Positions 12,836 to 40,494 of a stretch of 64,000 nucleotides of DNA are shown one piece after another (the first letter of the stretch is position 1; every line of letters starts with the position of its first letter). Source of the stretch: an uncultured Planctomycetia bacterium. GTDB taxonomy: Bacteria; Omnitrophota; Gorgyraeia; JAFGHF01. The notes beneath the pieces were generated by a model. The model had not been told where the DNA came from and searched no databases. It saw nothing but the letters and a program-made list of their open reading frames with translations. The translations under genes and the position numbers were made by a program. The stretch spans positions 11,648 to 75,647 of the forward strand of contig CAZPGX010000002.1 in the NCBI GenBank assembly GCA_964586605.1. The letters run 5' to 3'.

Positions 12836-12836
12836 C

Positions 12837-17734: not shown

Positions 17735-18378
17735 CCTACCACTACAGCTTTCGCTGCTTCCCCACCACAAAAGTTCCGTGGTGACAAATTTGTAGTCTGG
17801 ACTATACCTTAACCCCGAATCTTCGGGGTCCCTGCCATCTAGTCTCTACACCTTCCCTCGTTTTAGAGGGCTTGGCTCGGCATTGCCTTGAAATGACATC
17901 GAGGGTTTCACCGAATTTGACAGGTTACCCTTCAAGCGTTACCGCCTGAGGAGCCCATTGGACAATAAATCCCATCGCTCTCTGTAATCTGCTGACTTTG
18001 GTCTGCGTTGCCTTTTATCTGATTCTACAAATGTTATGCTACTTCCATAACGAGAAAAGACAGATATAGGCATTACATAGAACACATTTAAGTCAGCAAC
18101 ATAAGCAATTGCAAAATCAAAATCATTCGTATCGTAACGTTGCCTCAACATATGTCGGCGATTTGTCTTAGTTCGACGCACATCAACATTATAACATTTT
18201 GTCTTCGCGTTAAACCAAGCGCTCTTCACCTGAATACGTATGAGTTTTCTGTCAAGATCGACTGCCAAATCATACGCTAATCGATCTCCAACAGGCCGCA
18301 GCACCCTAAAGCCTCTTTTTAGAAGCTCGGTCGCGACAGCTGATTCTGCAATGTCGGCTTTGAGCTTTGTGTCCATTG
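17735..18378 (-). mobile_element. Group I (IC3-like) self-splicing intron, 644 nt, in the anticodon loop of tRNA-fMet (between U33 and C34, +/-1 nt)
   Basis: The 3' ~200 nt carry a recognisable group I core. The motifs GUCAAAUUCGGUGAAACC, GCAAUGCCGAGCCAAGC and GAAGGUGUAGAGACUAGAUGGCA are followed by a P8 hairpin (ACCCCGAAGAUUCGGGGU) and then by the S-like element AAGGUAUAGUCC. They closely match the Azoarcus pre-tRNA-Ile and cyanobacterial tRNA introns as recalled from memory. The ORF fills the 5' portion. Confidence 0.8.
17939..18376 (-). CDS. Intron-encoded putative homing endonuclease, PD-(D/E)XK family (I-Ssp6803I-like candidate), 145 aa
   Basis: The AUG lies at intron nt 3-5 (MDTKLKAD...). 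The sequence YDLAVDL...RIQVKS fits a D...(D/E)xK nuclease motif. The upstream 19 aa of the six-frame ORF (MIPFVEQRG...) are simply tRNA exon 1 translated. Confidence 0.65.
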   Translation of the reverse strand: MDTKLKADIAESAVATELLKRGFRVLRPVGDRLAYDLAVDLDRKLIRIQVKSAWFNAKTKCYNVDVRRTKTNRRHMLRQRYDTNDFDFAIAYVADLNVFYVMPISVFSRYGSSITFVESDKRQRRPKSADYRERWDLLSNGLLRR

Positions 18379-18465
18379 AGCCTGACGAGCTACCGGACTG
18401 CTCTACCCCGCGTTGTTCTACAAATGGTATCATATTTAACCGCTTAAGTCAACTTCTTTCTTATC

Positions 18466-26995: not shown

Positions 26996-27775
26996 TTATT
27001 CCAACACCTTGCCTCGGCGAAGCATAGTCTCCTTTGCGCTAATAGAGCGCACCTTTTTTCGTTTTACAGTATAAAGCGAAATCACATTCATCCCGCGGAA
27101 ATACCCTTTTATCACCGAAATAGCTTTTCGTGAAAGCGGCCTAACCAAGCTAGGCCTTAAGGGCGTATTGAGCTGAATTTCATCGGCTTGAATCTGCCTG
27201 GCTAATTTGGCTATATTTTTGGCCTCATCTTTATTTTGCGGCATAAACATCAACTGTAGCGCTAATTTTCCGTGGTACACTTTTCTAAATTGCTTAATAC
27301 CTTTTAAAATAGCGGGAAACACTATTTTCTTCGCCGGATGATTTATTAGCCTTAAGAATTTCTGCGAGCCGGCGTCCAATTTAAGCGCTACCAAATCCGC
27401 CAGAGCCAACTCTTGCCTTACATCTTGGCGATACAACAAACTTGAATTGGTTAATACCGCTACCGGCTCTTTGCGCAACCTTTTCACTGCCCTGATGGCC
27501 TCGCCTAAATTCCTGGCTAAAGTGGGCTCGCCGCGCCCCGAGAAGGTAATATAATCTATATGGACTCTGGGAAGCATCTTTATTTCTTTGAGGACCTCTC
27601 TGGTAGGAACGTACAATTTTCTTTTGGTCGTATAGGCCTTGGTCGGGCCCAGCTGGCAATAGATGCAATCAAATGTGCAAACCTTCTCTTCTTGCGAAAG
27701 CAAATCTATCCCTAAAGAGCTGCCCAATCTCCACGAAGGCACCGGGCCATAGATATATTTAAAGTTCTTTCTCAT
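26996..27775 (-). CDS. Radical SAM protein (COG0731-like)
   Basis: [15 protein letters not shown] followed by CTFDCIYCQ (CX3CX2C); 259 aa. Confidence 0.65.
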
Positions 27776-27838: not shown

Positions 27839-28435
27839 TTAATCTAAAGCGAAAACTATGGCAACTTCCATTGTTACGAAGTCTTGATTTATTTTTGCAG
27901 GAATTGACGGGAAAGGGTTGGCCCTTTGGATGGTGGCAACTGCCTCTTCATCAAGGATGTTAGAACCAGAGCGAGAAATAATTCTGATATCTTTGCTTAA
28001 ACCATTGGACAAAACCTGAAAGTTTAAATGAACCGTTCCTTCTACTCCCTGGCGTTTTGCGAAGGCCGGATACCTCCTTACTTCTTCTATCCTTTGCTTT
28101 ACCATATCCTGATAGCGAAACATTGCCTCTTCGGCTGGGTCGATTAGTTGGGTATTACTTATGCCTAATTGTTCATCAGTCTCTCCATCTGGCCTCTCAC
28201 AATTTGCCATTTGCAATTTGCCATTTGCCAACTTTTTCTCTTCTCCTAAAACATCTATCTTGGGCAAAAGGAGAGGTTTCTCCATCTTTATATAAACTAT
28301 TTCTAACTCCTTACGATTTTCCTCTATCGGGAGATTGGAGCTTAAATTAAAAGACGTACCTAAAAATAACAGATGCCCTGTCAAAGATAAAAGAAAAGTA
28401 ATCCTCATTATTTTATCCTTAAACATATTATTCAT
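27839..28435 (-). CDS. tonB: TonB-family energy transducer (C-terminal TonB domain)
   Basis: The C-terminus (GTVHLNFQVLSNG...ILDEEAVATIQRANPFPSIP) is a TonB_C domain. The start is probably an internal Met (M44 or M47), because the longer ORF overlaps the btuB 3' end. Confidence 0.65.
   Translation of the reverse strand: MNNMFKDKIMRITFLLSLTGHLLFLGTSFNLSSNLPIEENRKELEIVYIKMEKPLLLPKIDVLGEEKKLANGKLQMANCERPDGETDEQLGISNTQLIDPAEEAMFRYQDMVKQRIEEVRRYPAFAKRQGVEGTVHLNFQVLSNGLSKDIRIISRSGSNILDEEAVATIQRANPFPSIPAKINQDFVTMEVAIVFALD
28202..28229. repeat. Heptanucleotide tandem repeat (ATTTGCC/ATTTGCA) x4 within the tonB-like CDS
   Basis: It was read directly from the sequence. It encodes LANGKLQMAN in the linker region. 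Confidence 0.85.
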
Positions 28436-28484
28436 TCTTTTCCATCCCCCCACTATCACTTCGTAAGTGATAGTGGTTAAGCGC

Positions 28485-30350
28485 TTAAAAAGTTGCTTTA
28501 GCTCCTCCGTAGAAAGATGCTCCCGGATTAGCATATCCGCGAACTTGTTGAAATTTCTTGTCAAAGAGGTTTTCTATTCTTCCGAAAATCTGAAAAGTCT
28601 CTGTTAAATTATAAGAGGCGCAAAGATCAACCTTGGTGTATGCCTTTGCCTTCAGGGTATTTGCACTATTATCCCAGCGAGAGCCGATATAGCTTGTTGT
28701 TAGATTAACATTCCCTTTTTCAAGAAATGTCCAGTTCAAATCAACACCTGCTTGTTTCCTTGGCCTCCTAGCTAATTTTTTACCTGTGTCTTTATCTTCT
28801 GTCTTGGTGTAGGTGTAATTTGCCCCGATTGTCAGCACTTCTATTGGTTTGAAAGAACACTCTAATTCAACACCTTTCGTTTCTGCATTGTCAATATTTC
28901 TATAACTGCCTGAACTATAGGCAATCATATTCTTAAAATCATTATGAAAGTAGGTTAGGTCAAAAGAAATCTTGTCATTCCAAAAACGCTGCCCAAATCC
29001 GAAGTCGTAACTTTTGCTCTCATCAGGAGCAAGGGCTGTGTCCCCATAACTTGGATGATAGAGTTGGTATAAAGAAGGGGCCTTAAATCCGGTGCCCCAA
29101 TTGCCTTTAAGGCGGGTTCTCGTTTGCAGGATAAGATAAGCCGTGGATACTTTATAGAGGGTCTCGGTGCCAAAAAGCTCGTGCTCATCTACTCTTAAAC
29201 CAGGGGTAATGTATAAACTTTCCCAAAGTCTGAATTGATTTTGGAAATAGCAACCTCCGTTATCCACTGTCTTCCTATCAAGTCTGTTTGTTGAAGCACG
29301 GCCGTCACCAAAGCCTCTTTCCTGCTCATATTCAAAACCACAAGTCAACGTAGACCAATCAACTGGGTAAACATTGTGCTGCCATTCGAGTTTCTTCATC
29401 TCGCCCTTAAACCAGTTGTGTGTATTATCTGCTGTGTCCACAGAATCAGGCTCATCCTTATATTTTCTTCTGGTTTGCGAGTAAGAAAATGAAAACCTGT
29501 GGTCCCAGAATGAGTTTATGGCTTGGTCGAAGGCAATTTTTCCCGCTATATTTCTCCACCACCCCACTTTATTTGGGTCATCCTGATAAGCCCTGTTATC
29601 ATAATCATATTCGGCATCTGTGAAGCGCAAAGCAAAATCAAGATTGGCATCCTCAAGGATTTCATAGCCTAAACGAGTTGAGAATGTGATGTTTTCATAA
29701 CCGTCGTCCTCTGAGGTATCGGCAGTCTGCGATACCCCATCGCTATCCAGGCGTAGCAATGAGAAGGAAAAGTTTAGTTTATCCTCTGAGCCGCTCAAAG
29801 CCAATGTCTCTTTAAAAGTATTATCAGAGCCCCCCTCAAATAATGCTTCCCATTTTGGTTTACCCTTACCTTTTTTGGTAATAATATTGATGACTCCGCC
29901 TATAGCATCTGAGCCATAAAGGGTAGATTGAGGGCCGCGCACAACCTCAATGCGTTCAATATTATCAATGAGCAAATGAGCAAAGCCGTAGTCAAAAGAC
30001 CTATCGGCTTTCATTGGGTCGTTTAGCTCAATACCGTCAATTAAAACCAAAGTATGACCTGATTTTGAGCCTCGGAGATAAACAGAGGTTAATCCGCCAA
30101 ATGCCCCACTCTGTGCAACAGATACTCCCGGAACATCACGCAATACTTCCAGGACGGTTCTTTTGCCCTTCTTTTTTAACTCCTCAGCCGTGATTACTGT
30201 AGTTGAACTTCCCACTTCCGCCTGATACTGTTCTGTCTTTGTAGCAGCAACAATTACTTCTCCAAGATTATATTTTACTTCTTCGGCGCAAATGTTTCTG
30301 TTTATTAACAGCGTAAACATTCCTATTAAAATTATATTTTTCTTTCTCAC
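28485..30350 (-). CDS. btuB: TonB-dependent outer-membrane receptor, BtuB-like (cobalamin/corrinoid uptake candidate)
   Basis: It has a signal peptide, a plug domain, a beta-barrel and a C-terminal terminal Phe. It starts with GTG after a GGAGGAG RBS and is preceded by a cobalamin riboswitch. Confidence 0.85.
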   Translation of the reverse strand: MRKKNIILIGMFTLLINRNICAEEVKYNLGEVIVAATKTEQYQAEVGSSTTVITAEELKKKGKRTVLEVLRDVPGVSVAQSGAFGGLTSVYLRGSKSGHTLVLIDGIELNDPMKADRSFDYGFAHLLIDNIERIEVVRGPQSTLYGSDAIGGVINIITKKGKGKPKWEALFEGGSDNTFKETLALSGSEDKLNFSFSLLRLDSDGVSQTADTSEDDGYENITFSTRLGYEILEDANLDFALRFTDAEYDYDNRAYQDDPNKVGWWRNIAGKIAFDQAINSFWDHRFSFSYSQTRRKYKDEPDSVDTADNTHNWFKGEMKKLEWQHNVYPVDWSTLTCGFEYEQERGFGDGRASTNRLDRKTVDNGGCYFQNQFRLWESLYITPGLRVDEHELFGTETLYKVSTAYLILQTRTRLKGNWGTGFKAPSLYQLYHPSYGDTALAPDESKSYDFGFGQRFWNDKISFDLTYFHNDFKNMIAYSSGSYRNIDNAETKGVELECSFKPIEVLTIGANYTYTKTEDKDTGKKLARRPRKQAGVDLNWTFLEKGNVNLTTSYIGSRWDNSANTLKAKAYTKVDLCASYNLTETFQIFGRIENLFDKKFQQVRGYANPGASFYGGAKATF

Positions 30351-30361
30351 TTTCTCCTCCC

Positions 30362-30512
30362 TCGAGAATATTTACCCACCGAAGCTTTAGCGAAGGTGGG
30401 CTTCTCAGGATAGGCAATCGTCCGGGCTCCGCTGCATTTCGAAATGCAGCGATTACCGTTGCGGGGCAGCGGAAGGAATCACACCTTCACTTCCTTTGCC
30501 TATCCGGAAAAC
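30362..30512 (-). promoter_or_regulatory. Cobalamin (B12) riboswitch in the 5' leader of btuB
   Basis: The minus-strand RNA contains GGAAGUGAAGGUGUGAUUCCUUCCGCUGCCCCGCAACGGUAA, which has the GGUG...AAUCC...CCCGC-ACUG/ACGG (B12-box-like) pattern, together with a structured hairpin. Confidence 0.65.
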
Positions 30513-30522
30513 AAACTATAAG

Positions 30523-31825: not shown

Positions 31826-32818
31826 TTAAAACATTTCCCAGCGTTTAGATTTTAGCAGGAAACTTAAGAAAAATATTCCGCCGAATATTCCTGTTATTAC
31901 TCCTACCGGCAATTCTAGAGGCCGGATAATAGAACGAGCTAACGCATCGCAAAGAATGAGAAACGTTGCTCCAGCAATACAGGAAGCGGGTAAAAGTAAC
32001 CGATGGTTAACCCCAACAACCTTTCGCATAAAATGGGGGATTATTAATCCTACAAATCCGATTATCCCAGAGGCTGCTACGCAGGCACCGGTAATGCAAG
32101 ATGCTACAATGAAAAGAATCTTTTTAACCTGTTTTGAATTAACGCCTAAGTGCAGCGCCTTTTCCTCACCTAAGGTAAGAATATTCAGATCGCGGGAAAA
32201 GATTAAAAGCAGCCCTATGCCGGGAACAATAAAGAAGGGTATGATTTTTATTAAATAATCCTGGGCAGAGGAAAGGTCTCCCATCAGCCACAAAATCGCC
32301 CCGTGGACATCCTCCGCTTTGGAAACAGCAAATACCAGAAGCACCAAAGAGGAAAATAAAAAGCTTAAAATCACACCGCCCAAAATTAGGGTAGTATTGG
32401 AAAACTGTTTTCTAGAAGCAACAGTATATACTAAAAATACACTTAAGGCACTGCCGGCAAAGGCAGAAAGAGGCAATAAAATTCCGGAGGCACCGGAAAT
32501 AATTGCCAATGTTGCCCCCAGGGCCGCTCCCCCGGAGATACCCAGGGTGTAGGGTTCGGCTAAAGGATTACGCAAGATACCCTGAAATACTGCCCCGCAA
32601 GAGGCCAAGCCTGCGCCCACAAGTAAGGCTAACACAACCCTGGGAAAACGGATTTGCCAGATGATATCTCTTTCTACCCCCCAGGAGGCTGGATGAAAAA
32701 GGCAATATATAGCCTTTGTAACTTCGAGCTTGCTTCCTCCAACTAGATTTGAGGCAACAAAACTAAGACCAAGTATTGCGATCAGGGAAATAAATATTAA
32801 AGCGTGTCTTTTACTCAA
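31826..32818 (-). CDS. btuC: ABC transporter permease (BtuC/FecCD family)
   Basis: 330-aa polytopic membrane protein of the FecCD family. Confidence 0.85.
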   Translation of the reverse strand: MSKRHALIFISLIAILGLSFVASNLVGGSKLEVTKAIYCLFHPASWGVERDIIWQIRFPRVVLALLVGAGLASCGAVFQGILRNPLAEPYTLGISGGAALGATLAIISGASGILLPLSAFAGSALSVFLVYTVASRKQFSNTTLILGGVILSFLFSSLVLLVFAVSKAEDVHGAILWLMGDLSSAQDYLIKIIPFFIVPGIGLLLIFSRDLNILTLGEEKALHLGVNSKQVKKILFIVASCITGACVAASGIIGFVGLIIPHFMRKVVGVNHRLLLPASCIAGATFLILCDALARSIIRPLELPVGVITGIFGGIFFLSFLLKSKRWEMF

Positions 32819-32820
32819 AG

Positions 32821-33675
32821 CTATTCCACCTCTTCAAAGGCTTCCGGATGCAGAAGCCTTGCCACTTCTTTTAATCCTGCTAAGAAACTTATGGGTGTAG
32901 GCCGGCAGACTTTATCGGCATCAACAACATAAATCCTATTATTTTTTGTTGCCTCTAAGTCCTTAAATTTTTGCCAATATGTTCTTTCCTTCCCTGTTAC
33001 ATCGCCCATAGTAACTAAAATGATTACTTGCGGATTCTTGCTGAGGACTTCCTCGCGGCTTACCCGTGGATACCTAATAGAGGTATCGGCAAAAATATTA
33101 ATGCCACCGGAATATTCGATAAACTCATTAGCAAAAGATTTACCTCCTGCGCTGACTAAGGGCCTTGCTCCCACTTCCCAAAAGACTTTTACGGAAGGCG
33201 CACCTTTTGTCCTTTTAGCTATAGAATTTACTTCTTTCTCTGTTGCCCTTACAATATCTCTGGCTTTTTCCTCTCTCTGTGTTAACTTCCCTAGTCGAAT
33301 GAAATTCTTTGCAACCTCATCAAAGCTGTTGCACTCATCAAGGGCTATTACCTTAAGGCCTAAGTCTCGTAATTTCTCTATTGTTTGCGAACGATTTATT
33401 CCGTTGGCGGCTAACACCAAATCGGGAGAAAGAGAATAAATCTTCTCGATATTGGGATTAATTAAAGTCCCTATTGTCTCTTTTGTCTTGGTCTCCGGGG
33501 GATAATTACAATAGGAAGTTAGGCCTATTAAATCTTCTTCTGCGCCTAATTGATACAGGCTTTCTGTAATTGATGGGGCCAAAGAAATTATCCTTTTAGA
33601 CTGGTCTGCCATTGCAGATGATAGAACTAACAAAACTATAAAGACTATAAGGCAATATTTAATCAGTAATTTCAT
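32821..33675 (-). CDS. btuF: Periplasmic substrate-binding protein (BtuF/FecB class III)
   Basis: Signal peptide and a class III SBP; 284 aa. Confidence 0.75.
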   Translation of the reverse strand: MKLLIKYCLIVFIVLLVLSSAMADQSKRIISLAPSITESLYQLGAEEDLIGLTSYCNYPPETKTKETIGTLINPNIEKIYSLSPDLVLAANGINRSQTIEKLRDLGLKVIALDECNSFDEVAKNFIRLGKLTQREEKARDIVRATEKEVNSIAKRTKGAPSVKVFWEVGARPLVSAGGKSFANEFIEYSGGINIFADTSIRYPRVSREEVLSKNPQVIILVTMGDVTGKERTYWQKFKDLEATKNNRIYVVDADKVCRPTPISFLAGLKEVARLLHPEAFEEVE

Positions 33676-34324
33676 AATCTAAGATATCTAAGAACCAATG
33701 CTTGTCCCTTTGGATTTTTTTTGTCTTTAAAAGCGCTATTTTTCTTTTAAAGATAGGGCCAGAGTTGACAAAGGTGTGATACTCGCCAGATTCTCCGCAT
33801 AGGTCAACCTTACCCAAATCTTTTAGGTCTCTTATGAATTCTTCATCTATTTTGCGGCCTATCCACTTTGAACCCAAAACATCTGCCCTGGTCGCTACAA
33901 CAACTGCCTCAAAGCCTAAACTAATAAATTCTCTGAGAATCTCTTCCCTTTTTCCCTGCCATAAGGGGAAAATGGGCTTAATGCCGCAGTCTTTACAAAC
34001 CCTTTCTACCCAATCCCGGTGTTCTTGAAGATCAATATCTCCAAATACTCCTGCGGCAATATTCTCTTTTTTAAAATCACAAATGGCTTTTTTGAATTCC
34101 TCTTCATAAGTCTTCCACGTAGTTCTCCTCTGAACGATTGGAATTCCTGTGGATTCTGCCTGCAGTCTCATAAACTCTACGCCAATACCGTGAGAACGAG
34201 AATGTTTGCCATCTTCTGAAACCATATTTAAAAGATGCGTAATTTCAACATCCTGATTTTGCACTGCCTTATAAAGGGAAAGGGCCGTTTCTTTACCACC
34301 ACTCCAGGAAACAAATGCCTTCAT
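33659..34324 (-). CDS. PP-loop ATP pyrophosphatase, Dph6/MJ0570-like (ATP_bind_4 family), function unknown
   Basis: MKAFVSWSGGKET PP-loop; 221 aa. It is embedded in the cob/btu operon. Confidence 0.6.
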   Translation of the reverse strand: MKAFVSWSGGKETALSLYKAVQNQDVEITHLLNMVSEDGKHSRSHGIGVEFMRLQAESTGIPIVQRRTTWKTYEEEFKKAICDFKKENIAAGVFGDIDLQEHRDWVERVCKDCGIKPIFPLWQGKREEILREFISLGFEAVVVATRADVLGSKWIGRKIDEEFIRDLKDLGKVDLCGESGEYHTFVNSGPIFKRKIALLKTKKIQRDKHWFLDILDYEITD

Positions 34325-35245
34325 TTACAACCTCCAATTAAGAACATGCCCGCAGACCTTGCAGTGAAAGGCGCTAACATCCATACCCGCGCCGCAACCC
34401 GGACATGCCTTTTCAGTCTCCTTTGGCGCCGGAATTTCACCTACTTCCTTGCGATAAATCTCATAATAATAAAGATGTTCTTTATTTAAGAACTTCACGG
34501 GATATGCCTTTTGCTTTCTCTCGAATTCACTATCAGATATTCTTGAGCTAATAATATTCCTTAATCGTGTCATTCCAGAACCGATTTCAAGAGGCCTCTT
34601 ACTTTGCCAGACGAGCTGATGAGGCAATTTATCCTCAAAGGCCTTGCGTAAAATCCATTTACCCCAGATGGTTCCGTTATCCCTGTGTATTTTAAAATTA
34701 ATTGGTATTCCTAAAGCAAAATCTACCACTTTCTTGTCCATGTAAGGTTGTCTTATTTTAAGACCCTTCGATTCTGCCAGGACATTTGAACTAAAAGACA
34801 TATTACGCGATACTCTCTCTGTATAGCCTGCTAAATCCTTTATATCTTCCATAAACGAATAACCTGCAAAAATTTCATCGCTTCCGTCGCCGGTCATCAC
34901 CTCGTCTATTCCCAACTCTTTTGCAAACTTTAGTCCAAAATAGACAACTAAATCATTGGGAATGGCCGGATCGAAAGTTTTTAGTATCTTTATTACTTCT
35001 GGAATAGCTTCTATGGCTTCATCAGTGTCTATGCTTTTTTGATAATGCTCAATATTAAGAAATCTTGCCGCAGAAGCAGCATATTTGATATCTTCTCCAC
35101 CCGATTCCAAGCTTACCGTAATCGCTTTAATATTAGGGCTGAGCTTCGCCAATATAGCTGAATCTAAGCCTCCGGAAAAAAGAAGGCCGGTAGTCCTATT
35201 TTTTTGGACGGATTCGGTTAATTTTCTTTTTAATTCAAGAATCAT
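34325..35245 (-). CDS. Asparagine-synthetase-like PP-loop amidoligase domain protein with a C-terminal Zn ribbon (no glutaminase domain)
   Basis: LLFSGGLDSA PP-loop, an AsnB-like DEVMTGDGSDEIFAGY and a CPGCG...CKVCG zinc ribbon; 306 aa. Confidence 0.6.
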   Translation of the reverse strand: MILELKRKLTESVQKNRTTGLLFSGGLDSAILAKLSPNIKAITVSLESGGEDIKYAASAARFLNIEHYQKSIDTDEAIEAIPEVIKILKTFDPAIPNDLVVYFGLKFAKELGIDEVMTGDGSDEIFAGYSFMEDIKDLAGYTERVSRNMSFSSNVLAESKGLKIRQPYMDKKVVDFALGIPINFKIHRDNGTIWGKWILRKAFEDKLPHQLVWQSKRPLEIGSGMTRLRNIISSRISDSEFERKQKAYPVKFLNKEHLYYYEIYRKEVGEIPAPKETEKACPGCGAGMDVSAFHCKVCGHVLNWRL

Positions 35246-36294
35246 AGGACCTCTTTTAGAGCGGCAAGGAGTTGCAAATTTTCTTTGTGAGAACGCACAG
35301 CCACGCGGATATATTTATCATTTAAATTCCTGAAATTGGCGCAATCCCTGATCAGAATTCCTTTTTCCAGAAGCAACCTCTGTAATGACTTTGAACTCAA
35401 ACCAGGTCTTTCTATTTTTAGCAAAAGGAAATTTGCTACTGAGGGATAGGGCTTTAACCCCACGATTGCGGCTAATTGTTTACTAAGATATTTTCTTTCT
35501 TTCCCTATAAGCTTGCGGGTCTTTTTGATGTAAACTTTGTCGTTTAAAATCAGCCCTGCCGCTAATTGGGCTAAAGAATTTGTGCCCCAGGGCGCTTGGT
35601 ATTGCCTTAACTTGTCAATAATCTTTTTGTGCGCAATGAGGTAGCCTACTCTCAAGCCCGGTAGGGCAAAAAACTTTGTAAGCGTGCGCAGGACAATGAG
35701 CTTTTTGGATTTTACTGCCTTCCAAATTAAAGTATAATTTTTTTGCTCCGGCAAGAAATCCATAAAGGCCTCATCGACAACAACTAATTTATTGGATAGC
35801 GCCTCGATCCTCTTGCCATCTTCTGCAATAAGATTTCCTGTGGGATTGTTGGGGTTGCAAAGGAAAAGAATGTCTGTCTTGCCGATAGAAGACAAATCAA
35901 GCTTAAAGCCTTCTTTTTCTTTAAGTTTTAAAAATTCTATTCTGCTTTTTATGCCTCTTGCCGCACGCTCATATTCTGAGAATGTGGGCACGGGCACAAA
36001 AGCAGTCTTTGGCCTAAGAAAAGATATGATAAGATAGATGAGCTCGACAGAGCCGTTACCAAGAAGGACATTTTCCTCATCTATTCCCCAACATTTAGCG
36101 ATTTTTTTGGTTATATCAGTTGCTTTGTAATCAGGATAATGCAGGATTCTATCAAAATTTTTATAAATAGCCTCTTTTAGCCCTGCAGGCAAACCTAAAG
36201 GATTAATATTTGCGCTGAAATCGATTATTTTCTTTCTATCTTTGCCCTTAAGCTCGTAAATATTTCCGCCGTGTAAGAAATCTAGATCAGCCAT
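35242..36294 (-). CDS. cobD: L-threonine-O-3-phosphate decarboxylase (class I/II aminotransferase fold)
   Basis: HisC/CobD-like sequence with a PLP-lysine region; 350 aa. It is in the cob operon. Confidence 0.75.
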   Translation of the reverse strand: MADLDFLHGGNIYELKGKDRKKIIDFSANINPLGLPAGLKEAIYKNFDRILHYPDYKATDITKKIAKCWGIDEENVLLGNGSVELIYLIISFLRPKTAFVPVPTFSEYERAARGIKSRIEFLKLKEKEGFKLDLSSIGKTDILFLCNPNNPTGNLIAEDGKRIEALSNKLVVVDEAFMDFLPEQKNYTLIWKAVKSKKLIVLRTLTKFFALPGLRVGYLIAHKKIIDKLRQYQAPWGTNSLAQLAAGLILNDKVYIKKTRKLIGKERKYLSKQLAAIVGLKPYPSVANFLLLKIERPGLSSKSLQRLLLEKGILIRDCANFRNLNDKYIRVAVRSHKENLQLLAALKEVL

Positions 36295-37211
36295 TTTAAA
36301 ATAATCCCCATAGAGACCATTAAAACAGAGGCAAGCAAACTTATGGTTAATGCCTCATTTATAAAAGAAGGATGCAGAACTCTTTTTTCTTCTCCAAGAT
36401 AAGGATTTGTGTAAAATTTACCTTGATAAGACCTGTTGCCCCCCAGCCTTATTCCTAAGGCCCCGGCCATAGCTGCAATTGATACCCCGCTATTTGGGGA
36501 AGGGTGTTTCCTGCCATCTCTAAGCATCGTTTTAAAAGAATCTTTGAATCTTTTTAGCGAAGCAGCCGATATTAAAAATCCGCAAATCCGCGCAGGAATA
36601 AAATTAACAATGTCATCTACCTTGGCAGAGAACCAGCCCAGATGAAGATACTTTTCATTCCTATACCCCACCATCGAATCAAGGGTGTTTATGGCCTTGT
36701 AAGCAAAAACCAACACCGGCCCTCCTAAAATGAGGTAAAAAAGAGGTGCTATAATACCATCATTAGTACTCTCGGCAATGCTCTCTATTGTAGCCGCCGT
36801 TATCCTATCTTTGTTTAAATCCCGGGTATCCCTGCCTACAATTTTAGAAAGTTCTTCCCGGGCAGAAGCAATGGAGTTATCTTTAAGCGCCTGCGAAATT
36901 GCCCTTGCTTTAACCCGTAAATCCTTTACAGAAAGTGTAGTGTAACCTAAATAAATCCAAGCTAAGTTTCCAAAATAGGGGTTCAACTTTCTAAAAAATT
37001 CAATAAATAGATAGGCAAAGCAGGCGCTTATCCCTACTATAACAAAAGCTAATACTATTCCCTTCGTTCGTTCTATCCAGAGAGCGCTCCTGCCGCCCAA
37101 TCGCTTCTCCAGCAGGCCTATTAATTTGCCAATGCCCCTTACCGGATGGGGAAACCATTCAGGATCTCCCAAGATCAAATCAGCAATATAAGAAGAGATT
37201 ATTAAGAACAT
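36282..37211 (-). CDS. cbiB: Adenosylcobinamide-phosphate synthase
   Basis: The N-terminus (LILGDPEWFPHPVRGIGKLI) is typical of CbiB; membrane protein. Confidence 0.85.
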   Translation of the reverse strand: MFLIISSYIADLILGDPEWFPHPVRGIGKLIGLLEKRLGGRSALWIERTKGIVLAFVIVGISACFAYLFIEFFRKLNPYFGNLAWIYLGYTTLSVKDLRVKARAISQALKDNSIASAREELSKIVGRDTRDLNKDRITAATIESIAESTNDGIIAPLFYLILGGPVLVFAYKAINTLDSMVGYRNEKYLHLGWFSAKVDDIVNFIPARICGFLISAASLKRFKDSFKTMLRDGRKHPSPNSGVSIAAMAGALGIRLGGNRSYQGKFYTNPYLGEEKRVLHPSFINEALTISLLASVLMVSMGIILKWLI

Positions 37212-37217
37212 ATTATC

Positions 37218-37949
37218 TTAAAAATAGATTAATACAAAAAATAGTACGGCTAGCTCTGCAATCTCACTTGTGGCGCCAATTGTATCTCCGGTCATCCCGC
37301 CAATTTTTCTCTTTGCGTAATTGATAAATAAAAATATCGGAAGTAAAGAAAGACTTAATAAGACAATCCCCTTTAATTTCATCAACAATAGAAATAAGGC
37401 TACGGTAAAGAGGCCCGCGCGAAGAAACTCTCTTTTAGTGCTATATTCTATGAAATATTTGGCCTTGCCTTCTTTACGTGCGTACTTAGACATATAACAG
37501 GCTAAACTTTGAGACCACCTTGAAAATACTGTCATCGCGATCAGGGCTTTCCAAAGGATATTTTGCGGAATATTTAGCATTAAACTAAATTTTAGAAGCA
37601 ACAGGCTTACTAGACCAATTACCCCCATTACGCCAATCCGGCTATCCCGCATTATCTTTAATATCTGTTCCTTGGACCTCCTGCCATAGAATCCATCGCA
37701 GGTATCGGCGAAGCCATCCAAATGTATTCCGCCTGTTACAACAATCGATCCGATTAGAACCAAGATAACCGTAACTAAATGCGGCAAGAAATTAAAGACA
37801 AACAGAATCAAAACTAACAAAACCCCTATGAATGCGCCGACTATGGGAAAATAAGCAAGCGAGCCGCCGAAGTCTTTTGCTTTTATCTCTGATCTAATTT
37901 TAATCGGCAGGGTAGTCAAGAATTGCAGGGCAATTAAAAACTTTTTCAT
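37218..37949 (-). CDS. cobS: Adenosylcobinamide-GDP ribazoletransferase (cobalamin synthase)
   Basis: 243-aa polytopic membrane protein of the CobS family (FLTTLPI...DGFADTCDG). Confidence 0.85.
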   Translation of the reverse strand: MKKFLIALQFLTTLPIKIRSEIKAKDFGGSLAYFPIVGAFIGVLLVLILFVFNFLPHLVTVILVLIGSIVVTGGIHLDGFADTCDGFYGRRSKEQILKIMRDSRIGVMGVIGLVSLLLLKFSLMLNIPQNILWKALIAMTVFSRWSQSLACYMSKYARKEGKAKYFIEYSTKREFLRAGLFTVALFLLLMKLKGIVLLSLSLLPIFLFINYAKRKIGGMTGDTIGATSEIAELAVLFFVLIYF

Positions 37950-39031
37950 GGTTCGACAGGCTCACCACTGTGTTTATCGGTTCTTTCAGATACGCCTGCG
38001 CTTTGGAATGTCGCCATTTGAGTCAAAATTTTAATGCCGGCTTCTATTATATTCATTGCCAAGGCGCTACCGGTGCCCTCTCCCAACCTTAGATCTAAAT
38101 TCAGGATTGGCGCAAGGCCCATATGCTCCAGAACAATCTTATGGCCTTTTTCAACGGAACAGTGCGCAGCAATCAGATAATCTTTAATCTTTGGTTCCAA
38201 TTGATAGGCTATCAATGCAGCTGCTCCTGAGATAAAACCATCGATCACTATCGGCACTCTTCTGGAAGCGCTGGCTAAAATTACACCGGCCAGGCCCCCT
38301 ATCTCAAAGCCGCCTACCTTAGAAAGCACATCGATTGCATCCTGCGGGTTGGGCCTATTTAACTCAAGGGCCTTTTTAATCACAGCAATCTTATTTGAAA
38401 GGGCCTGATCATTAATACCTGTTCCTCTGCCCACCAATTCCTCTGCCGGTTTACCCGTAATGCAGGCAGCAATTGCGGAGGAGGGTGTGGTATTGCCAAT
38501 GCCCATATCTCCTGTCCCAACTATGTCTATGCCATTTAAGAATTCTTCTTCAAACACCTCTATGCCGTTTTCTATAGATTTTACAGCCTCTTCTCTGGTC
38601 ATAGCCGGGCCTTCTGCCATATTCTTAGTTCCGTAATTTACCTTTTTAATTATTAGCCCTGGATGGGAATTTAAATCTGAGGCCACACCCATATCAACCA
38701 CAACAACTTTAGCCCCCACATGCCTGGCGAGCACGTTTATGCCGGCGCCGCCTCCGGTAAAGTTGTAAACCATCTGCGGCGTTACCTCCTGAGGAAAGAC
38801 GCTTACTCCTTCTTTGACAACACCGTGGTCGCCGGCCAGAGTAAATATAACCTTAAATTTAGTTGGAGGGTTAACATTGCCTGTAATCTCTACTACCTGT
38901 TTAGCCAATTCTTCTAAGCGCCCGAGGCTTCCTTGCGGTTTGGTAAGGTTATCAAGGCGCTTTTGTGTCTTTTGGGCCAGGCTATGGTCTATCTCCTTGA
39001 TTTTATTTATTGTCTCTTGTAATTTTTGCAT
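37946..39031 (-). CDS. cobT: Nicotinate-nucleotide--dimethylbenzimidazole phosphoribosyltransferase
   Basis: CobT family (the C-terminal LGEGTGSALAM); 361 aa. Confidence 0.9.
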   Translation of the reverse strand: MQKLQETINKIKEIDHSLAQKTQKRLDNLTKPQGSLGRLEELAKQVVEITGNVNPPTKFKVIFTLAGDHGVVKEGVSVFPQEVTPQMVYNFTGGGAGINVLARHVGAKVVVVDMGVASDLNSHPGLIIKKVNYGTKNMAEGPAMTREEAVKSIENGIEVFEEEFLNGIDIVGTGDMGIGNTTPSSAIAACITGKPAEELVGRGTGINDQALSNKIAVIKKALELNRPNPQDAIDVLSKVGGFEIGGLAGVILASASRRVPIVIDGFISGAAALIAYQLEPKIKDYLIAAHCSVEKGHKIVLEHMGLAPILNLDLRLGEGTGSALAMNIIEAGIKILTQMATFQSAGVSERTDKHSGEPVEP

Positions 39032-39032
39032 C

Positions 39033-39587
39033 TTAATTTCCTTTTATGTTTACAGGGATCCCTGCCTGCATAAGAATTACCTGATCAGCCTTTTTTGCGA
39101 GCATCTGATTTGCCAACCCCAGTAAATCACGAAATCGCCTGGCCAAAGCATTCTCAGGAACTATACCAGCTCCTACCTCATTTGATACTAAGATTACAAC
39201 GCAATTGGCTTTTAGTATAACCTCGATGAGATTCTTTATCTTCTTCTCTATTTGCCCATCTTTCAAGTTACTCATTAAAAGATTAGAAACTAATAGACCC
39301 AAACAATCGATCAAAACCACTTTATATTTGTCGGGCAGTTTAGACAAAGCCAAACCAACATCTCTGCCTTCTTCAACTAGTTTCCAGGTCCTGGGCCTTG
39401 AGGCCTTGTGTAATTTTATTCTTTTCTTCATCTCCCTATCTAATGAAGCGGCTGTAGCAATAAAGGCCACTGGTTTTTTCCCGCCAGAGGCGGGTCCGCC
39501 TTCGGCGGAGAACTCTTTTGCCAATTGCACCGCATGACTACTCTTTCCGCTTCTGGCACCGCCCAAGATAAGAATAAATTGCTTCAT
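39033..39587 (-). CDS. cobU: Adenosylcobinamide kinase / adenosylcobinamide-phosphate guanylyltransferase
   Basis: P-loop ILILGGARSGKSS; 184 aa. Confidence 0.85.
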   Translation of the reverse strand: MKQFILILGGARSGKSSHAVQLAKEFSAEGGPASGGKKPVAFIATAASLDREMKKRIKLHKASRPRTWKLVEEGRDVGLALSKLPDKYKVVLIDCLGLLVSNLLMSNLKDGQIEKKIKNLIEVILKANCVVILVSNEVGAGIVPENALARRFRDLLGLANQMLAKKADQVILMQAGIPVNIKGN

Positions 39588-40150
39588 GCTGCGACTCCTT
39601 CAGGGTAATCTATAATTCTTAAAGTGCCGATTTCCTGCTCTACCTTCCAGAAACTTTCTAAGCCAAACTTTAATGCCTGGCAGAGGATAATTTTTATCGG
39701 TCCGCCATGGCTGACCAAGGCTATTGTCTTACCCACATCTTGGCAAAGAATAAGAAATAATCTCTTCTTAACTCTTCTCTCTAACTCTACTAGCCCCTCG
39801 CCGCTTGGAACTTTGACTCTCAGCGGATTATCTATCCAGTTTCTATAGAGTTTGGCGTGAGTTTTGATAATCTCTTCGTGCTTCAGCCCCTCAAAAAGGC
39901 CGAAATTCATTTCGCGCAAGTCTTTTGCTTTCTCAATTGAATTATTTCTAAAGATTATCTTTGCCGTTTCGTATGCCCTGTCTAAATCGCTTGAATAGAC
40001 TCTATCTACATTTAGGCCTTTCAATCTAACAGCTAACTTTTTCGCCTGCCATATGCCTTTACTGTTTAACGGCGGATTGCCAAATCCGCAATATCTCTTT
40101 TCCAGGTTGTAATCTGTTTCGCCGTGACGGATTAAAATCAGTCTTGTCAT
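39584..40150 (-). CDS. cobC: Alpha-ribazole phosphatase (histidine phosphatase family)
   Basis: The RHGETDYN catalytic motif is present. The start was moved to the internal ATG (MTRLILIRHGE), because the longer ORF runs through the riboswitch terminator hairpin. Confidence 0.8.
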   Translation of the reverse strand: MTRLILIRHGETDYNLEKRYCGFGNPPLNSKGIWQAKKLAVRLKGLNVDRVYSSDLDRAYETAKIIFRNNSIEKAKDLREMNFGLFEGLKHEEIIKTHAKLYRNWIDNPLRVKVPSGEGLVELERRVKKRLFLILCQDVGKTIALVSHGGPIKIILCQALKFGLESFWKVEQEIGTLRIIDYPEGVAA

Positions 40151-40170
40151 AAAACTATCCCTAACAAAAA

Positions 40171-40440
40171 GTCCCGAATGTAGAAACTTCATTGAAGTTC
40201 TACCTTCGGGACTGCACCCTGATTTATCTTGGCCCCTAAATAAAAACTTTTAAGTTCTATCCTGCGTAGAACAAAAAGTTTCCTCGCTTCGTTAGGCAGG
40301 TCTTCTGACTTACGGCTTCCTACTCACCAGGCCTTCCCACCCCGAGACTTCGGGACAGTGGCTAATGCTGGTTTTCGCTACCGATTACAGCGGCGGGACC
40401 GCGCTCGAGTTTCACGAGCTTCCCTACACCTAACTTGCAA
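40171..40440 (-). promoter_or_regulatory. Cobalamin riboswitch (aptamer about 40294..40437) plus an intrinsic-terminator expression platform (hairpin 40171..40212 followed by a U-run), upstream of cobC
   Basis: The minus-strand RNA reads GGUGUAGGGAAGC...GUGAAA...GCGCGGUCCCGCCGCUGUAAUCGG...GCCACUG...GGGAAGGCC...GCCGUAAGUCAGAAGACCUGCC. This includes the canonical B12 box GCCACUG and the conserved flanking elements. Confidence 0.85.
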
Positions 40441-40494
40441 TCTATTCAATTGTAATGCTACCATAAACTAAATATCTATCTTTGTCAAGAAAAA

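What the first reader, a model, noticed from the sequence alone, without database searches (positions are those of the whole stretch)
33659..35245. Two PP-loop ATP-pyrophosphatase (amidoligase-like) genes embedded in the B12-riboswitch-controlled cobamide salvage and transport operon
The riboswitch at about 40171..40440 and btuB at 28485..30350 bracket a tightly overlapping minus-strand operon. Its order is cobC-cobU-cobT-cobS-cbiB-cobD, then a stand-alone asparagine-synthetase-like domain with a C-terminal Zn ribbon (SGGLDS PP-loop), then a Dph6/MJ0570-type PP-loop ATPase (SGGKE), then btuF-btuC-btuD and a DUF4430-like gene. Neither PP-loop family is part of known cobamide biosynthesis or salvage; the known amidations use CobB/CobQ-type enzymes, and salvage uses CbiZ. 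Both families adenylate carboxylates and ligate ammonia or amines. Their 4-nt and 0-nt junctions with neighbours imply co-translation with the cob/btu genes. A plausible but unproven role is re-amidation or tailoring of salvaged, incompletely amidated corrinoids or their side chains.
Basis: inference. Interest (0 to 1): 0.6.

Follow-up and report, generated by a model that had tools for sequence, protein, structure and literature searches.

The report
B12-operon pair of PP-loop amidoligases
Two ATP-dependent "carboxylate-to-amide" enzymes really do sit inside a vitamin-B12 salvage operon: one was already predicted in 2012 to act in B12 salvage, and the other belongs to an apparently undescribed family that is tied to B12 from bacteria to water moulds and most likely re-amidates salvaged B12 precursors, though this is unproven.

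Summary
Window 34325..35245(-) encodes a 306-aa stand-alone asparagine-synthetase C-terminal domain. It has the SGGLDS PP-loop, no glutaminase domain, and a conserved C-terminal CxxC..CxxC zinc ribbon. I call it AsnBC. Window 33659..34324(-) encodes a DUF71/COG2102 PP-loop protein. Both lie in a riboswitch-led operon: cobC-cobU-cobT-cobS-cbiB-cobD-AsnBC-DUF71-btuFCD-DUF4430.

The DUF71 gene is not new. It carries the ExGE[YF]H signature of the "DUF71-B12" subgroup, which was linked to btuFCD/cbiB and B12 salvage in 2012 (PMC3541065). Its function is still unknown.

AsnBC appears undescribed. In 88 related loci, DUF71 follows it directly in 54 of 68 testable cases, usually among cob/btu genes and B12 riboswitches. 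Independent domain fusions also tie the AsnBC family to corrinoids: CobY-AsnBC in Thermoprotei and MMACHC/CblC-AsnBC in oomycetes. Stand-alone copies occur in B12-using early-diverging fungi.

Best reading (confidence about 0.4): both are ammonia-dependent amidoligases acting on corrinoid carboxylate side chains. That both work on B12 at all is about 0.9.

Rivals are a CbiZ-like remodelling route and modification of a peptide. An optional cbpA/cbpB radical-SAM peptide cassette inserts exactly between the two genes in relatives.

The parts
40460..40488 (-). promoter-like site (TTGACA-17-TATGGT) upstream of the riboswitch
   Evidence: This is a consensus match only.
40278..40448 (-). cobalamin riboswitch heading the operon
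   Evidence: Rfam RF00174, 95 bits, E 2e-22
39584..40192 (-). cobC (alpha-ribazole phosphatase-like His phosphatase)
   Evidence: PF00300 at 8e-53. TIGR03162 scores 147 bits, just under its cut-off of 163.
39033..39587 (-). cobU (AdoCbi kinase/guanylyltransferase)
   Evidence: NF004469, 190 bits, above its cut-off
37946..39031 (-). cobT
   Evidence: TIGR03160, 468 bits, above its cut-off
37218..37949 (-). cobS
   Evidence: TIGR00317, 152 bits, above its cut-off
36282..37211 (-). cbiB (AdoCbi-P synthase)
   Evidence: TIGR00380, 243 bits, above its cut-off
35242..36294 (-). cobD (L-Thr-P decarboxylase)
   Evidence: TIGR01140, 309 bits, above its cut-off
34325..35245 (-). AsnBC: a stand-alone AsnB-type PP-loop synthetase domain with a C-terminal Zn ribbon. 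Proposed corrinoid amidoligase.
   Evidence: PF00733 at 2.8e-40. AlphaFold2 model with pLDDT 89.7. Foldseek best match is AsnB 1ct9, TMq 0.75. The family alignment is, synteny, and fusions.
33659..34324 (-). DUF71-B12 subgroup PP-loop ATP pyrophosphatase
   Evidence: PF01902 at 1e-56. It falls below the Dph6 cut-off. It has the ESGEYH motif, and 115 of 120 homologues have ExGE[YF]HT. The subgroup is defined in PMC3541065.
32821..33675 (-). btuF (periplasmic binding protein)
   Evidence: PF01497 at 9e-31
31826..32818 (-). btuC (FecCD permease)
   Evidence: PF01032 on the identical gene in L001
30981..31823 (-). btuD (ABC ATPase)
   Evidence: PF00005 on the identical gene in L001
30523..30966 (-). 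DUF4430 protein, the last gene of the operon
   Evidence: PF14478 at 1e-7
30396..30518 (-). second, weak cobalamin riboswitch in front of btuB
   Evidence: RF00174, 35.7 bits against a gathering score of 31.5
28485..30350 (-). TonB-dependent receptor, probably BtuB
   Evidence: Plug plus barrel domains. TIGR01779 scores 333 bits, below its cut-off.
27839..28564 (-). TonB
   Evidence: PF03544 at 1.6e-15

Best explanation
Both proteins are ATP-pyrophosphatase (PP-loop) amidoligases that act on imported or incomplete corrinoids.

Proposed mechanism: each adenylates a free carboxylate side chain of the corrin (acyl-AMP plus PPi), and free ammonia then converts it to the carboxamide. The substrates would be incompletely amidated cobyrinic or cobyric-acid-type precursors, or deamidated cobamides. 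The two enzymes would cover different side chains. The products would feed the neighbouring CbiB/CobD and CobU/T/S/C steps after uptake by BtuB/BtuFCD. The whole unit is switched off by B12 through the riboswitch.

What is shown:
- gene identities
- operon structure
- conserved pairing of the two genes
- B12 linkage by neighbourhood, riboswitch and domain fusion
- loss of the AsnB and Dph6 substrate signatures

What is inferred:
- the substrate (a corrinoid carboxylate)
- the nucleophile (NH3)
- the division of labour between the two enzymes

Confidence that both genes work in corrinoid salvage or processing is about 0.9. Confidence in this specific chemistry is about 0.4.
For: 1. Chemistry of the ancestors. 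AsnB synthetase domains and Dph6 both convert carboxylate plus ATP plus NH3 to carboxamide plus AMP plus PPi (established knowledge). The ATP motifs are kept: SGGLDS and K216 in AsnBC, SGGKE in DUF71.

2. The original substrates are excluded.
- AsnBC has no glutaminase domain.
- The AsnB TTIR loop is replaced by an invariant DPAIPND, and E348 by D120.
- AsnBC scores far below the AsnB equivalog cut-offs (151 against 499 bits).
- DUF71 has ESGEYH instead of Dph6 EGG[ED]xE, and falls below the Dph6 cut-off (135 against 197 bits).

3. Conserved pairing and B12 context.
- 88 loci were examined, with AsnBC 53-66% identical to the window protein.
- DUF71 lies within 300 nt downstream in 54 of 68 loci that have room. 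In 5 more it is present but separated by an inserted cassette or in reversed order.
- At least one cob/btu gene is present in 58 of 69 loci.
- The pair persists while its flanks change. Upstream can be cobD, cobS, btuB, btuF or cobT. Downstream can be btuF or cbiB.
- Cobalamin riboswitches head pair-containing operons of different gene order in L009, L010 and L027.

4. Rosetta-stone fusions of the AsnBC family (Zn ribbon, TGDGxDE, no GAT domain).
- Fused to CobY, the AdoCbi-P guanylyltransferase, in Thermoprotei. The match to PDB 2mzb/3rsb is full length at E 4e-18, and the gene sits inside a cobT-cobS operon.
- Fused to MMACHC/CblC, the B12-processing chaperone, in oomycetes. Profile search against PDB gives E 6e-9, and the AlphaFold2 model matches human MMACHC at TMt 0.70-0.72.
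- Stand-alone homologues occur in Mortierella, Umbelopsis, Coemansia and chytrids. These are lineages reported to use B12. No Dikarya appear in the hit list (PMC8085122).
- These eukaryotes are not known to assemble nucleotide loops (not checked here). This points to the corrin ring or its side chains as the target rather than the lower loop.

5. AsnBC also lies at the end of de novo cbiF-cbiGH genes (L018) and next to CbiA/GATase_3 (L096). This is consistent with a corrin-amidation-type step.

6. The AsnB(GAT+synthetase)-DUF71 fusions reported in methanogens link the two PP-loop families to each other and to an ammonia source (PMC3541065).
Against: - There is no biochemical or genetic test. 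The substrate is inferred only from context.
- Known corrinoid amidations use unrelated enzymes (CbiA/CobB and CbiP/CobQ, which produce ADP plus Pi). It is unknown whether the genomes carrying the pair lack them. Some relatives clearly have de novo cbi genes or CbiA nearby, so simple replacement is not required.
- The published phyletic pattern (DUF71-B12 anticorrelated with CbiZ in bacteria) fits a remodelling role better than a re-amidation role.
- A cbpA/cbpB peptide plus radical-SAM cassette inserts exactly between the two genes in at least 9 relatives. CbpA is fused in frame to AsnBC in two of them. This hints at a peptide substrate.
- The window's subfamily has lost the Arg (FDPMEVRN becomes FDPAIPND) that the wider family shares with AsnB R325. 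Function may therefore differ between subfamilies.
- Nitrososphaeria-type members show no B12 neighbourhood.
Confidence: 0.4

Rival explanations
1. CbiZ substitute, or cobamide remodelling. One or both enzymes provide an ATP-dependent route that removes or exchanges the nucleotide loop of unwanted cobamides or cobinamide. For example, activation of the f-side-chain amide could yield cobyric acid or its adenylate. CbiB/CobD and CobU/T/S/C would then rebuild the loop with the preferred lower ligand.
For: - This is the published hypothesis for DUF71-B12. Nearly all CbiB-containing prokaryotes have either CbiZ or DUF71-B12, and the two are strictly anticorrelated in bacteria (PMC3541065).
- The operon contains cbiB and cobD, which are only useful if cobyric acid is produced or imported, and it shows no cbiZ.
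- cobD is the most common upstream neighbour of AsnBC, in 33 loci.
- The CobY-AsnBC fusion sits in a nucleotide-loop operon.
- CbiZ was not among the 25 most frequent Pfam families in 150 neighbouring ORFs.
Against: - PP-loop amidoligases are not known to run as amidohydrolases. A reviewer raised this objection in the 2012 paper.
- The AsnBC family occurs in oomycetes and early fungi, fused to CblC or stand-alone. Nucleotide-loop rebuilding is not known in these organisms.
- It also occurs in de novo cbi clusters.
- The absence of CbiZ from the whole genome could not be tested with a 64-kb window.
Confidence: 0.2
2. Peptide or protein modification. AsnBC (like the AsnB-type lasso cyclases) and DUF71 (like Dph6, which acts on a protein) amidate or cyclise a ribosomal peptide or a B12-handling protein. 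The candidate peptide is CbpA, matured by the radical SAM/SPASM enzyme CbpB.
For: - In L016, L046, L056 and L101, a CbpA precursor (TIGR04164, up to 55 bits against a cut-off of 35) and CbpB (TIGR04163, up to 706 bits against a cut-off of 375) lie exactly between AsnBC and DUF71. In L004, L069 and L084 they lie just after DUF71.
- CbpA is fused in frame to the C-terminus of AsnBC in P0062/L101 and in L056.
- Both ancestral families include enzymes that act on polypeptides.
Against: - The window and most loci have the pair but no cbpA/cbpB. tblastn found none in the window, and the cassette was seen in about 11 of 89 loci.
- The fusions to CobY and CblC, which handle small-molecule corrinoids, and the eukaryotic members are not explained by this reading.
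- Hits to the lasso-cyclase models are far below their cut-offs (44 against 300 bits).
Confidence: 0.12
3. The enzymes act on another small molecule of the loop-assembly branch. For example, they could activate or aminate a lower-ligand base, or make or attach the aminopropanol or threonine-phosphate linker by an adenylate route.
For: - AsnBC is tightly coupled to cobD, with a 4-nt overlap here and cobD upstream in 33 loci.
- A GHMP (PduX-like) kinase lies directly upstream in L040.
- The CobY fusion lies next to cobT-cobS.
- PP-loop enzymes also aminate heterocycles, as GuaA and QueC do (established knowledge).
Against: - CbiB, CobD and CobT are already present for these steps.
- The eukaryotic CblC fusions and fungal homologues lack this pathway context.
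- No candidate substrate emerges from the neighbourhoods.
Confidence: 0.13
4. Housekeeping enzymes placed here by chance: an ammonia-dependent asparagine synthetase and a diphthine-ammonia ligase, as current automatic annotation says.
For: Public names given to homologues are 'asparagine synthase (glutamine-hydrolysing)' and 'diphthine--ammonia ligase'.
Against: - Both proteins score below all equivalog cut-offs.
- Substrate-site motifs are replaced.
- Bacteria have no diphthamide (PMC3541065).
- The pairing is conserved inside B12 operons in dozens of loci.
Confidence: 0.02

Closest known systems
DUF71-B12 subgroup of COG2102/DUF71 (de Crecy-Lagard et al. 2012, PMC3541065)
   Same: The window gene 33659..34324 has the same fold family (PF01902), the same SGGK[DE] PP-loop, and the same diagnostic ExGE[FY]H motif with His at the Dph6 E188 position. 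It also has the same neighbourhood, directly upstream of btuFCD and near cbiB.
   Different: Nothing essential differs, so this gene is a member. The second residue of the motif is Ser here. It is Lys, Ala or Asn in most relatives. The 2012 paper did not report a constant AsnB-like partner gene.
Asparagine synthetase B (E. coli AsnB, PDB 1ct9; human ASNS)
   Same: AsnBC shares the C-terminal synthetase fold (Foldseek TMq 0.75, 26-28% identity), the SGGxDS PP-loop, the GxGxDE segment, and the Lys equivalent to K449.
   Different: AsnBC has no N-terminal glutaminase domain. The TTIR aspartate/transition-state loop is replaced by DPAIPND, and E348 by Asp. It has an extra C-terminal Zn ribbon. It sits in a B12 operon and scores well below the equivalog cut-offs.
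Dph6 diphthine-ammonia ligase
   Same: The DUF71 gene shares the Pfam family, the ATP-binding residues, and the presumed chemistry of carboxylate adenylation followed by ammonia attack.
   Different: The EGG[ED]xE motif is replaced. The score is below the TIGR03679 cut-off. The host is bacterial and has no diphthamide. The context is B12.
CbiA/CobB and CbiP/CobQ corrinoid amidotransferases
   Same: The net reaction proposed here is the same: amidation of corrin acetate and propionate side chains, with two enzymes dividing the side chains between them.
   Different: These enzymes have an unrelated fold (a MinD/dethiobiotin-synthetase-like ATPase plus GATase_3). They go through phosphoryl rather than adenylyl intermediates and use glutamine. 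Neither window protein matches these families.
CbiZ adenosylcobinamide / pseudo-B12 amidohydrolase
   Same: CbiZ occupies the same operon niche in salvagers, between transport genes and cbiB. It is anticorrelated with DUF71-B12 in bacteria.
   Different: CbiZ has an unrelated fold and is a hydrolase that uses no ATP. No sequence similarity to it was detected here.
CbpA/CbpB (NCBIfam TIGR04164/TIGR04163), a peptide plus radical SAM/SPASM system
   Same: It occurs in the same operons, inserted between or just after the two PP-loop genes in relatives.
   Different: It is absent from this window. Its function is unknown, and I found no published study of it in the searchable library.

Membership tests
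Asparagine synthetase B (glutamine-hydrolysing) | N-terminal Ntn/GAT-II glutaminase domain | tested here: not met
   The protein is 306 aa and aligns only to AsnB positions 210-505. No GATase Pfam hit was found.
Asparagine synthetase B (glutamine-hydrolysing) | PP-loop SGGxDS and the C-terminal synthetase fold | tested here: met
   SGGLDS at residues 24-29. The AlphaFold2 model (pLDDT 89.7) matches 1ct9 at TMq 0.75, E 4e-16.
Asparagine synthetase B (glutamine-hydrolysing) | Curated equivalog score | tested here: not met
   NF006949 scores 150.9 bits against a cut-off of 499. TIGR01536 scores 111.6 against 267.
Asparagine synthetase B (glutamine-hydrolysing) | Aspartate/transition-state residues (Thr322, Thr323, Arg325, Glu348 of E. 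coli AsnB; their roles are recalled from the literature) | tested here: not met
   The profile alignment puts an invariant DPAIPND opposite DVTTIRA, and D120 opposite E348. K449 is kept as K216.
Dph6 diphthine-ammonia ligase | DUF71 (PF01902) domain with the SGGKD/E PP-loop | tested here: met
   PF01902 at 1e-56 over residues 1-215, with SGGKE.
Dph6 diphthine-ammonia ligase | EGG[E/D]xE motif with catalytic E188, and the equivalog score | tested here: not met
   The motif is ESGEYH, with His at the E188 position. TIGR03679 scores 135.3 bits against a cut-off of 197.3.
Dph6 diphthine-ammonia ligase | The host makes diphthamide on EF-2 (archaea and eukaryotes only) | tested here: not met
   The operon encodes a TonB-dependent outer-membrane receptor and TonB, so the host is a diderm bacterium. 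That bacteria lack diphthamide is taken from PMC3541065.
DUF71-B12 subgroup | ENGE[F/Y]H-type motif (His replaces E188) | tested here: met
   ESGEYHT in the window protein. 115 of the 120 closest homologues have ExGE[YF]HT.
DUF71-B12 subgroup | Physical clustering with btuFCD and/or cbiB | tested here: met
   The gene lies directly upstream of btuF (17-nt overlap), and cbiB is three genes upstream. The same holds in related loci.
DUF71-B12 subgroup | No CbiZ in the same bacterial genome | not testable with these tools
   Only 64 kb of the genome is available. No cbiZ is in the operon, and CbiZ is not among the top 25 families in 150 neighbouring ORFs of relatives.
CbiA/CobB and CbiP/CobQ corrinoid amidotransferases | CbiA-type ATPase domain plus GATase_3 domain | tested here: not met
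   Neither protein hits PF01656 or PF07685. A genuine CbiA/GATase_3 gene is seen next to a distant AsnBC in L096.
AsnB-like lasso-peptide / macrolactam cyclases | Curated family score, and an adjacent precursor peptide with B1/B2 (leader-recognition and leader-peptidase) proteins | tested here: not met
   NF033561 scores 43.9 bits against a cut-off of 300. NF033535 scores 37.2 against 525. No lasso genes are present, and no CbpA is in the window.
AsnBC family as defined here (B12-linked stand-alone AsnB-like domain) | No GAT domain, a TGDGxDE segment, and a C-terminal CxxC..CxxC ribbon | tested here: met
   All 20 aligned close members keep the four Cys and TGDGxDE. 90 of 123 representatives of at least 280 aa have the ribbon. 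GAT-containing relatives form one separate cluster in a neighbour-joining tree.

The most novel reading that the evidence does not exclude
The Zn-ribbon AsnB-like family (AsnBC) is a previously unrecognised, widely distributed corrinoid side-chain amidoligase. It would be a PP-loop 'B12 re-amidation or repair' enzyme used by bacteria, archaea, oomycetes (fused to CblC) and early-diverging fungi. Together with DUF71-B12 it would form an adenylate-based alternative or complement to CobB/CobQ. That would let B12 auxotrophs use incompletely amidated or deamidated corrinoids.
Probability: 0.3. Interest if true: 0.85.

Novelty: new variant of a known kind. Interest (0 to 1): 0.65.

Why it matters
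The function of DUF71-B12 has been open since 2012, and a 2016 review still lists it as unknown. Its reviewers also asked what an AsnB-like PP-loop domain fused to DUF71 might do.

This work shows that an AsnB-like partner is a near-constant neighbour in several uncultured phyla. It also shows that the partner's family is fused to CblC and CobY elsewhere. That turns a vague association into a concrete, testable proposal: two adenylating amidoligases acting on corrinoids.

If the proposal is true, it adds a new enzymatic step to cobamide salvage. It widens the range of environmental corrinoids that auxotrophs can use. It also identifies a new B12-processing activity in eukaryotes (oomycete pathogens and early fungi).

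Separately, the work flags systematic misannotation. Bacterial DUF71 proteins are named 'diphthine--ammonia ligase', and AsnBC proteins are named 'asparagine synthase'.

Tried and rejected
- The genome-contig scan was run with the single protein instead of an alignment. The metagenome scan with alignment A1 compensated for this.
- The literature search for CbpB, cobopep and TIGR04163 gave only unrelated acronyms. Searches combining asparagine synthase with riboswitch, btuF or cobinamide found no prior description of the AsnB-like partner. The same was true for MMACHC combined with asparagine synthetase. A search for deamidated-cobalamin literature found nothing useful.
- tblastn of CbpA, CbpB, CobA/BtuR and the small radical-SAM family against the window gave no hits. 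These recurrent neighbours are absent here, and the window's radical SAM ORF 26996..27775 is not their homologue.
- The contexts of Nitrososphaeria-type AsnBC homologues were uninformative, with no B12 genes.
- I tried to find the host gene of the group I intron with ARAGORN, both with in-silico splicing and with the intron option. Nothing was found.
- Considered and rejected: housekeeping AsnB or Dph6 (signatures and cut-offs fail), lasso cyclase (scores far below cut-offs), and recent horizontal insertion (GC is uniform).

Full report
**1. Observation**

The minus strand between 30523 and 40192 carries twelve tightly packed ORFs. NCBIfam and Pfam identify most of them.
- Matched above or very near the curated cut-offs: cobC (39584..40192), cobU, cobT, cobS, cbiB and cobD (35242..36294).
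- Matched by Pfam domain: btuF and a DUF4430 gene.
- btuC and btuD were assigned from the FecCD and ABC_tran calls on the identical contig L001.
- The two focal genes are 34325..35245 (Asn_synthase, 2.8e-40) and 33659..34324 (Diphthami_syn_2, 1e-56).

cobD and AsnBC overlap by ATGA. The AsnBC TAA is followed immediately by the DUF71 ATG. DUF71 overlaps btuF by 17 nt.

Rfam places a strong cobalamin riboswitch at 40278..40448(-), 95 bits. A promoter-like site lies just upstream of it. A second, marginal riboswitch lies at 30396..30518, in front of btuB-tonB. GC content is uniform.

**2. The DUF71 gene is already explained at the level of association**

It falls below the Dph6 equivalog cut-off, at 135 against 197 bits. 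It carries ESGEYH where Dph6 has EGG[ED]xE.

De Crecy-Lagard et al. 2012 defined exactly this 'DUF71-B12' subgroup.
- The defining motif is ENGE[F/Y]H.
- 75 of 102 members were adjacent to btuCDF and 18 of 102 to cbiB.
- The subgroup was strictly anticorrelated with CbiZ in bacteria.
- They proposed a role in pseudo-B12 or cobinamide salvage, possibly replacing CbiZ (PMC3541065).

A 2016 review still lists the function as unknown (PMC5041015). I found no later experimental work.

Of the 120 closest homologues, 115 have ExGE[YF]HT. Many are publicly named 'diphthine--ammonia ligase'. That is the misannotation the 2012 paper warned about.

**3. The AsnB-like gene (AsnBC)**

It is a stand-alone synthetase domain.
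- It aligns to AsnB residues 210-505 only.
- It folds confidently (pLDDT 89.7).
- Its best structural matches are E. coli and human asparagine synthetase, at TMq 0.75, followed by beta-lactam and carbapenam synthetases.

The PP-loop and the Lys equivalent to AsnB K449 are kept. The AsnB TTIR loop is replaced by an invariant DPAIPND, and E348 by Asp. A CxxC..CxxC ribbon is appended. No NCBIfam model claims it.

Close homologues are 53-74% identical. They come from Omnitrophota, Nitrospirota, Thermodesulfovibrionales, Firestonebacteria, Hydrogenedentota and many unnamed metagenome contigs.

**4. Neighbourhood test**

I examined 88 loci: 8 from species-representative genomes and 80 from metagenomes. 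They were annotated by tblastn with the window's own proteins.
- DUF71 starts within 300 nt downstream of AsnBC in 54 of 68 loci with enough sequence.
- In four more (L016, L046, L055, L056) it follows an inserted cassette. In one (L075) the order is reversed.
- Seven loci have AsnBC without an adjacent DUF71. Six of these still contain cob/btu genes: L033, L040, L066, L067, L068 and L083. The seventh, L072, has a homocysteine S-methyltransferase gene upstream instead.
- At least one cob/btu gene is present in 58 of 69 loci with 1.5 kb or more of flank.
- The pair stays together while its flanks change. Upstream can be cobD, cobS, btuB, btuF or cobT. Downstream can be btuF or cbiB.

Cobalamin riboswitches head differently arranged operons that contain the pair (L009, L010, L027).

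Other recurrent neighbours are the CobA/BtuR adenosyltransferase, small radical-SAM proteins and tetrapyrrole methylases. CbiZ and CbiA/CobQ families are not among the 25 most frequent.

**5. Evidence independent of operons**

A full HMMER scan of 1.84 billion representatives shows that stand-alone, roughly 300-350-aa, Zn-ribbon, TGDGxDE proteins extend down to about 31% identity. They make up about 100 clusters at 50% identity. GAT-containing AsnB-like proteins form one separate cluster in a crude neighbour-joining tree.

Within this AsnBC family I found several fusions and notable distributions.
- **CobY-AsnBC fusions in Thermoprotei.** The N-terminal domain matches M. jannaschii CobY over its full length (E 4e-18). 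The gene follows cobT-like and cobS genes.
- **MMACHC/CblC-AsnBC fusions** in Aphanomyces, Saprolegnia, Achlya, Thraustotheca, Pythium and Phytophthora. The single-sequence Pfam hit is weak. A 14-sequence profile hits human MMACHC at 6e-9. The AlphaFold2 model (pLDDT 84) superposes on MMACHC at TMt 0.70-0.72.
- **Stand-alone homologues** in Mortierella, Umbelopsis, Coemansia and chytrids. No Dikarya are in the hit list. This mirrors the reported distribution of B12 use in fungi (PMC8085122).
- **Members beside de novo cbiF-cbiGH genes** (L018), **beside btuF plus CbiA/GATase_3** (L096), and **beside a MetH-like domain** (L072).

That paper and my literature searches do not mention this family.

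**6. Mechanism**

Both parent families adenylate a carboxylate and pass it to ammonia. Both proteins here keep the ATP site but have lost the parent substrate signatures. AsnBC has no glutaminase domain, so free NH3 or a partner is needed.

AsnBC is physically fused to two proteins that bind corrinoids: CblC, which binds cobalamin, and CobY, which binds AdoCbi-P. It also occurs in eukaryotes that only use B12 and do not build it. The simplest common denominator is therefore action on the corrin itself.

The only carboxylate chemistry available on a corrin is the side chains. I therefore favour amidation of incompletely amidated or deamidated corrinoids, with the two enzymes covering different side chains. 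In this operon that would feed CbiB/CobD and CobU/T/S/C.

The substrate, the nucleophile and the division of labour are inferred, not shown (confidence about 0.4). That mild hydrolysis of B12 yields b-, d- and e-monocarboxylic acids is from my own knowledge, not from a tool.

**7. Rivals**

*CbiZ-replacement or remodelling (0.2).* This is the published idea. It fits the CbiZ anticorrelation and the presence of cbiB and cobD without cbiZ. It requires unusual chemistry for a PP-loop enzyme and does not explain the eukaryotic members.

*Peptide modification (0.12).* This was raised by an unexpected find.
- In at least 9 relatives, a CbpA precursor peptide and the CbpB radical SAM/SPASM enzyme sit exactly between AsnBC and DUF71, or just after DUF71. 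CbpA (TIGR04164) has the core sequence ..VIAYRKKCKxNGTGLSHYxL... CbpB (TIGR04163) scores up to 706 bits.
- One of these relatives, L101, is close to the window: the same epimerase gene lies upstream of its operon.
- CbpA is fused in frame to AsnBC in two cases.
- The window has a 0-nt junction at that position and no cbpAB. The cassette is therefore accessory, but the link deserves testing.

*A role on linker or lower-ligand precursors (0.13).* This is suggested by the coupling to cobD, the GHMP kinase neighbour and the CobY fusion.

*Housekeeping AsnB or Dph6.* This is essentially excluded.

**8. Novelty and verdict**

The DUF71 half is already known as a prediction. The AsnB-like partner, its constant pairing with DUF71, its Zn-ribbon family, and its fusions to CblC and CobY appear undescribed in the searchable literature.

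Both folds and the chemistry type are familiar. I therefore rate the whole as a new variant of a known kind, with interest 0.65. It makes a question that has been open since 2012 directly testable, and it points to a possible new B12-processing enzyme in eukaryotes.

Noticed in passing
L016:5279-6886, L046:7685-9248, L056:10985-12443, L101:9001-11490. Also L004, L012, L019, L035, L048, L069 and L084.: A CbpA precursor peptide (TIGR04164) and the CbpB radical SAM/SPASM enzyme (TIGR04163) are inserted exactly at the AsnBC|DUF71 junction, or just after DUF71, in relatives. The cassette is absent from the window. CbpA is fused in frame to the C-terminus of AsnBC in L101/P0062 and in L056.
   Followed up: partly
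P0340, P0391-P0405 (oomycete proteins); model mff967610fb98: Oomycetes encode an MMACHC/CblC domain fused to an AsnBC domain with a Zn ribbon. Early-diverging fungi (Mortierella, Umbelopsis, Coemansia, chytrids) have stand-alone AsnBC homologues, and no Dikarya are among the hits.
   Followed up: partly
L092/L093:6123-9587 (Thermoprotei archaeon): A CobY (AdoCbi-P guanylyltransferase)-AsnBC fusion protein is the last gene of a cobT-like, cobS operon. No DUF71 lies within 8 kb.
   Followed up: partly
window 30396..30518 (-): A second, marginal cobalamin riboswitch (35.7 bits against a gathering score of 31.5) lies between the DUF4430 gene and btuB. This suggests that btuB-tonB is a separately B12-controlled unit.
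   Followed up: no
window 17782..17977 (-) and 17939..18433 (-): A group I intron match (RF00028, 75 bits) is directly preceded and overlapped by a PD-(D/E)XK endonuclease ORF (PF11645, 1e-44), a possible homing endonuclease. ARAGORN finds no host tRNA, even when allowing introns. Adenylosuccinate lyase lies downstream. The host gene is unresolved.
   Followed up: partly
L055:10929-11627, 12305-13066, 14185-15009: An IS200-like transposase sits between AsnBC and DUF71. Two CbiE-like tetrapyrrole methylase genes are interleaved with btuF inside an otherwise salvage-type operon.
   Followed up: no
L018:189-4925 (and L026): AsnBC follows cbiF, a cbiG-cbiH fusion, and a 417-aa unknown protein with a weak BPL_N (class-I glutamine-amidotransferase-like) hit. 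That protein is a possible ammonia-donating partner.
   Followed up: no
L045, L047, L049, L050, L051, L061: One lineage keeps the AsnBC-DUF71 pair next to a DUF294/CBS/cNMP nucleotidyltransferase, an RNase T-like exonuclease, an isochorismatase and RadC, with no cob genes. No riboswitch lies upstream of the pair. In L049 a riboswitch lies downstream, before btuB.
   Followed up: partly
L080:6530-7387, L016:7622-8350 and 8 other loci: A small activase-like radical SAM protein (Fer4_12 plus Radical_SAM, about 250-285 aa) recurs downstream of DUF71 or btuF in 10 loci. The window's radical SAM ORF 26996..27775 is not its homologue.
   Followed up: partly
P0140-P0224 (homologues of window 33659..34324): Bacterial DUF71-B12 proteins are widely named 'diphthine--ammonia ligase' in public records, and AsnBC proteins are named 'asparagine synthase (glutamine-hydrolysing)'. 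Both names are very probably wrong.
   Followed up: yes
L040:4114-5019: A GHMP-family kinase (possibly a PduX-like L-threonine kinase) lies directly upstream of AsnBC, in a locus where AsnBC has no adjacent DUF71.
   Followed up: no
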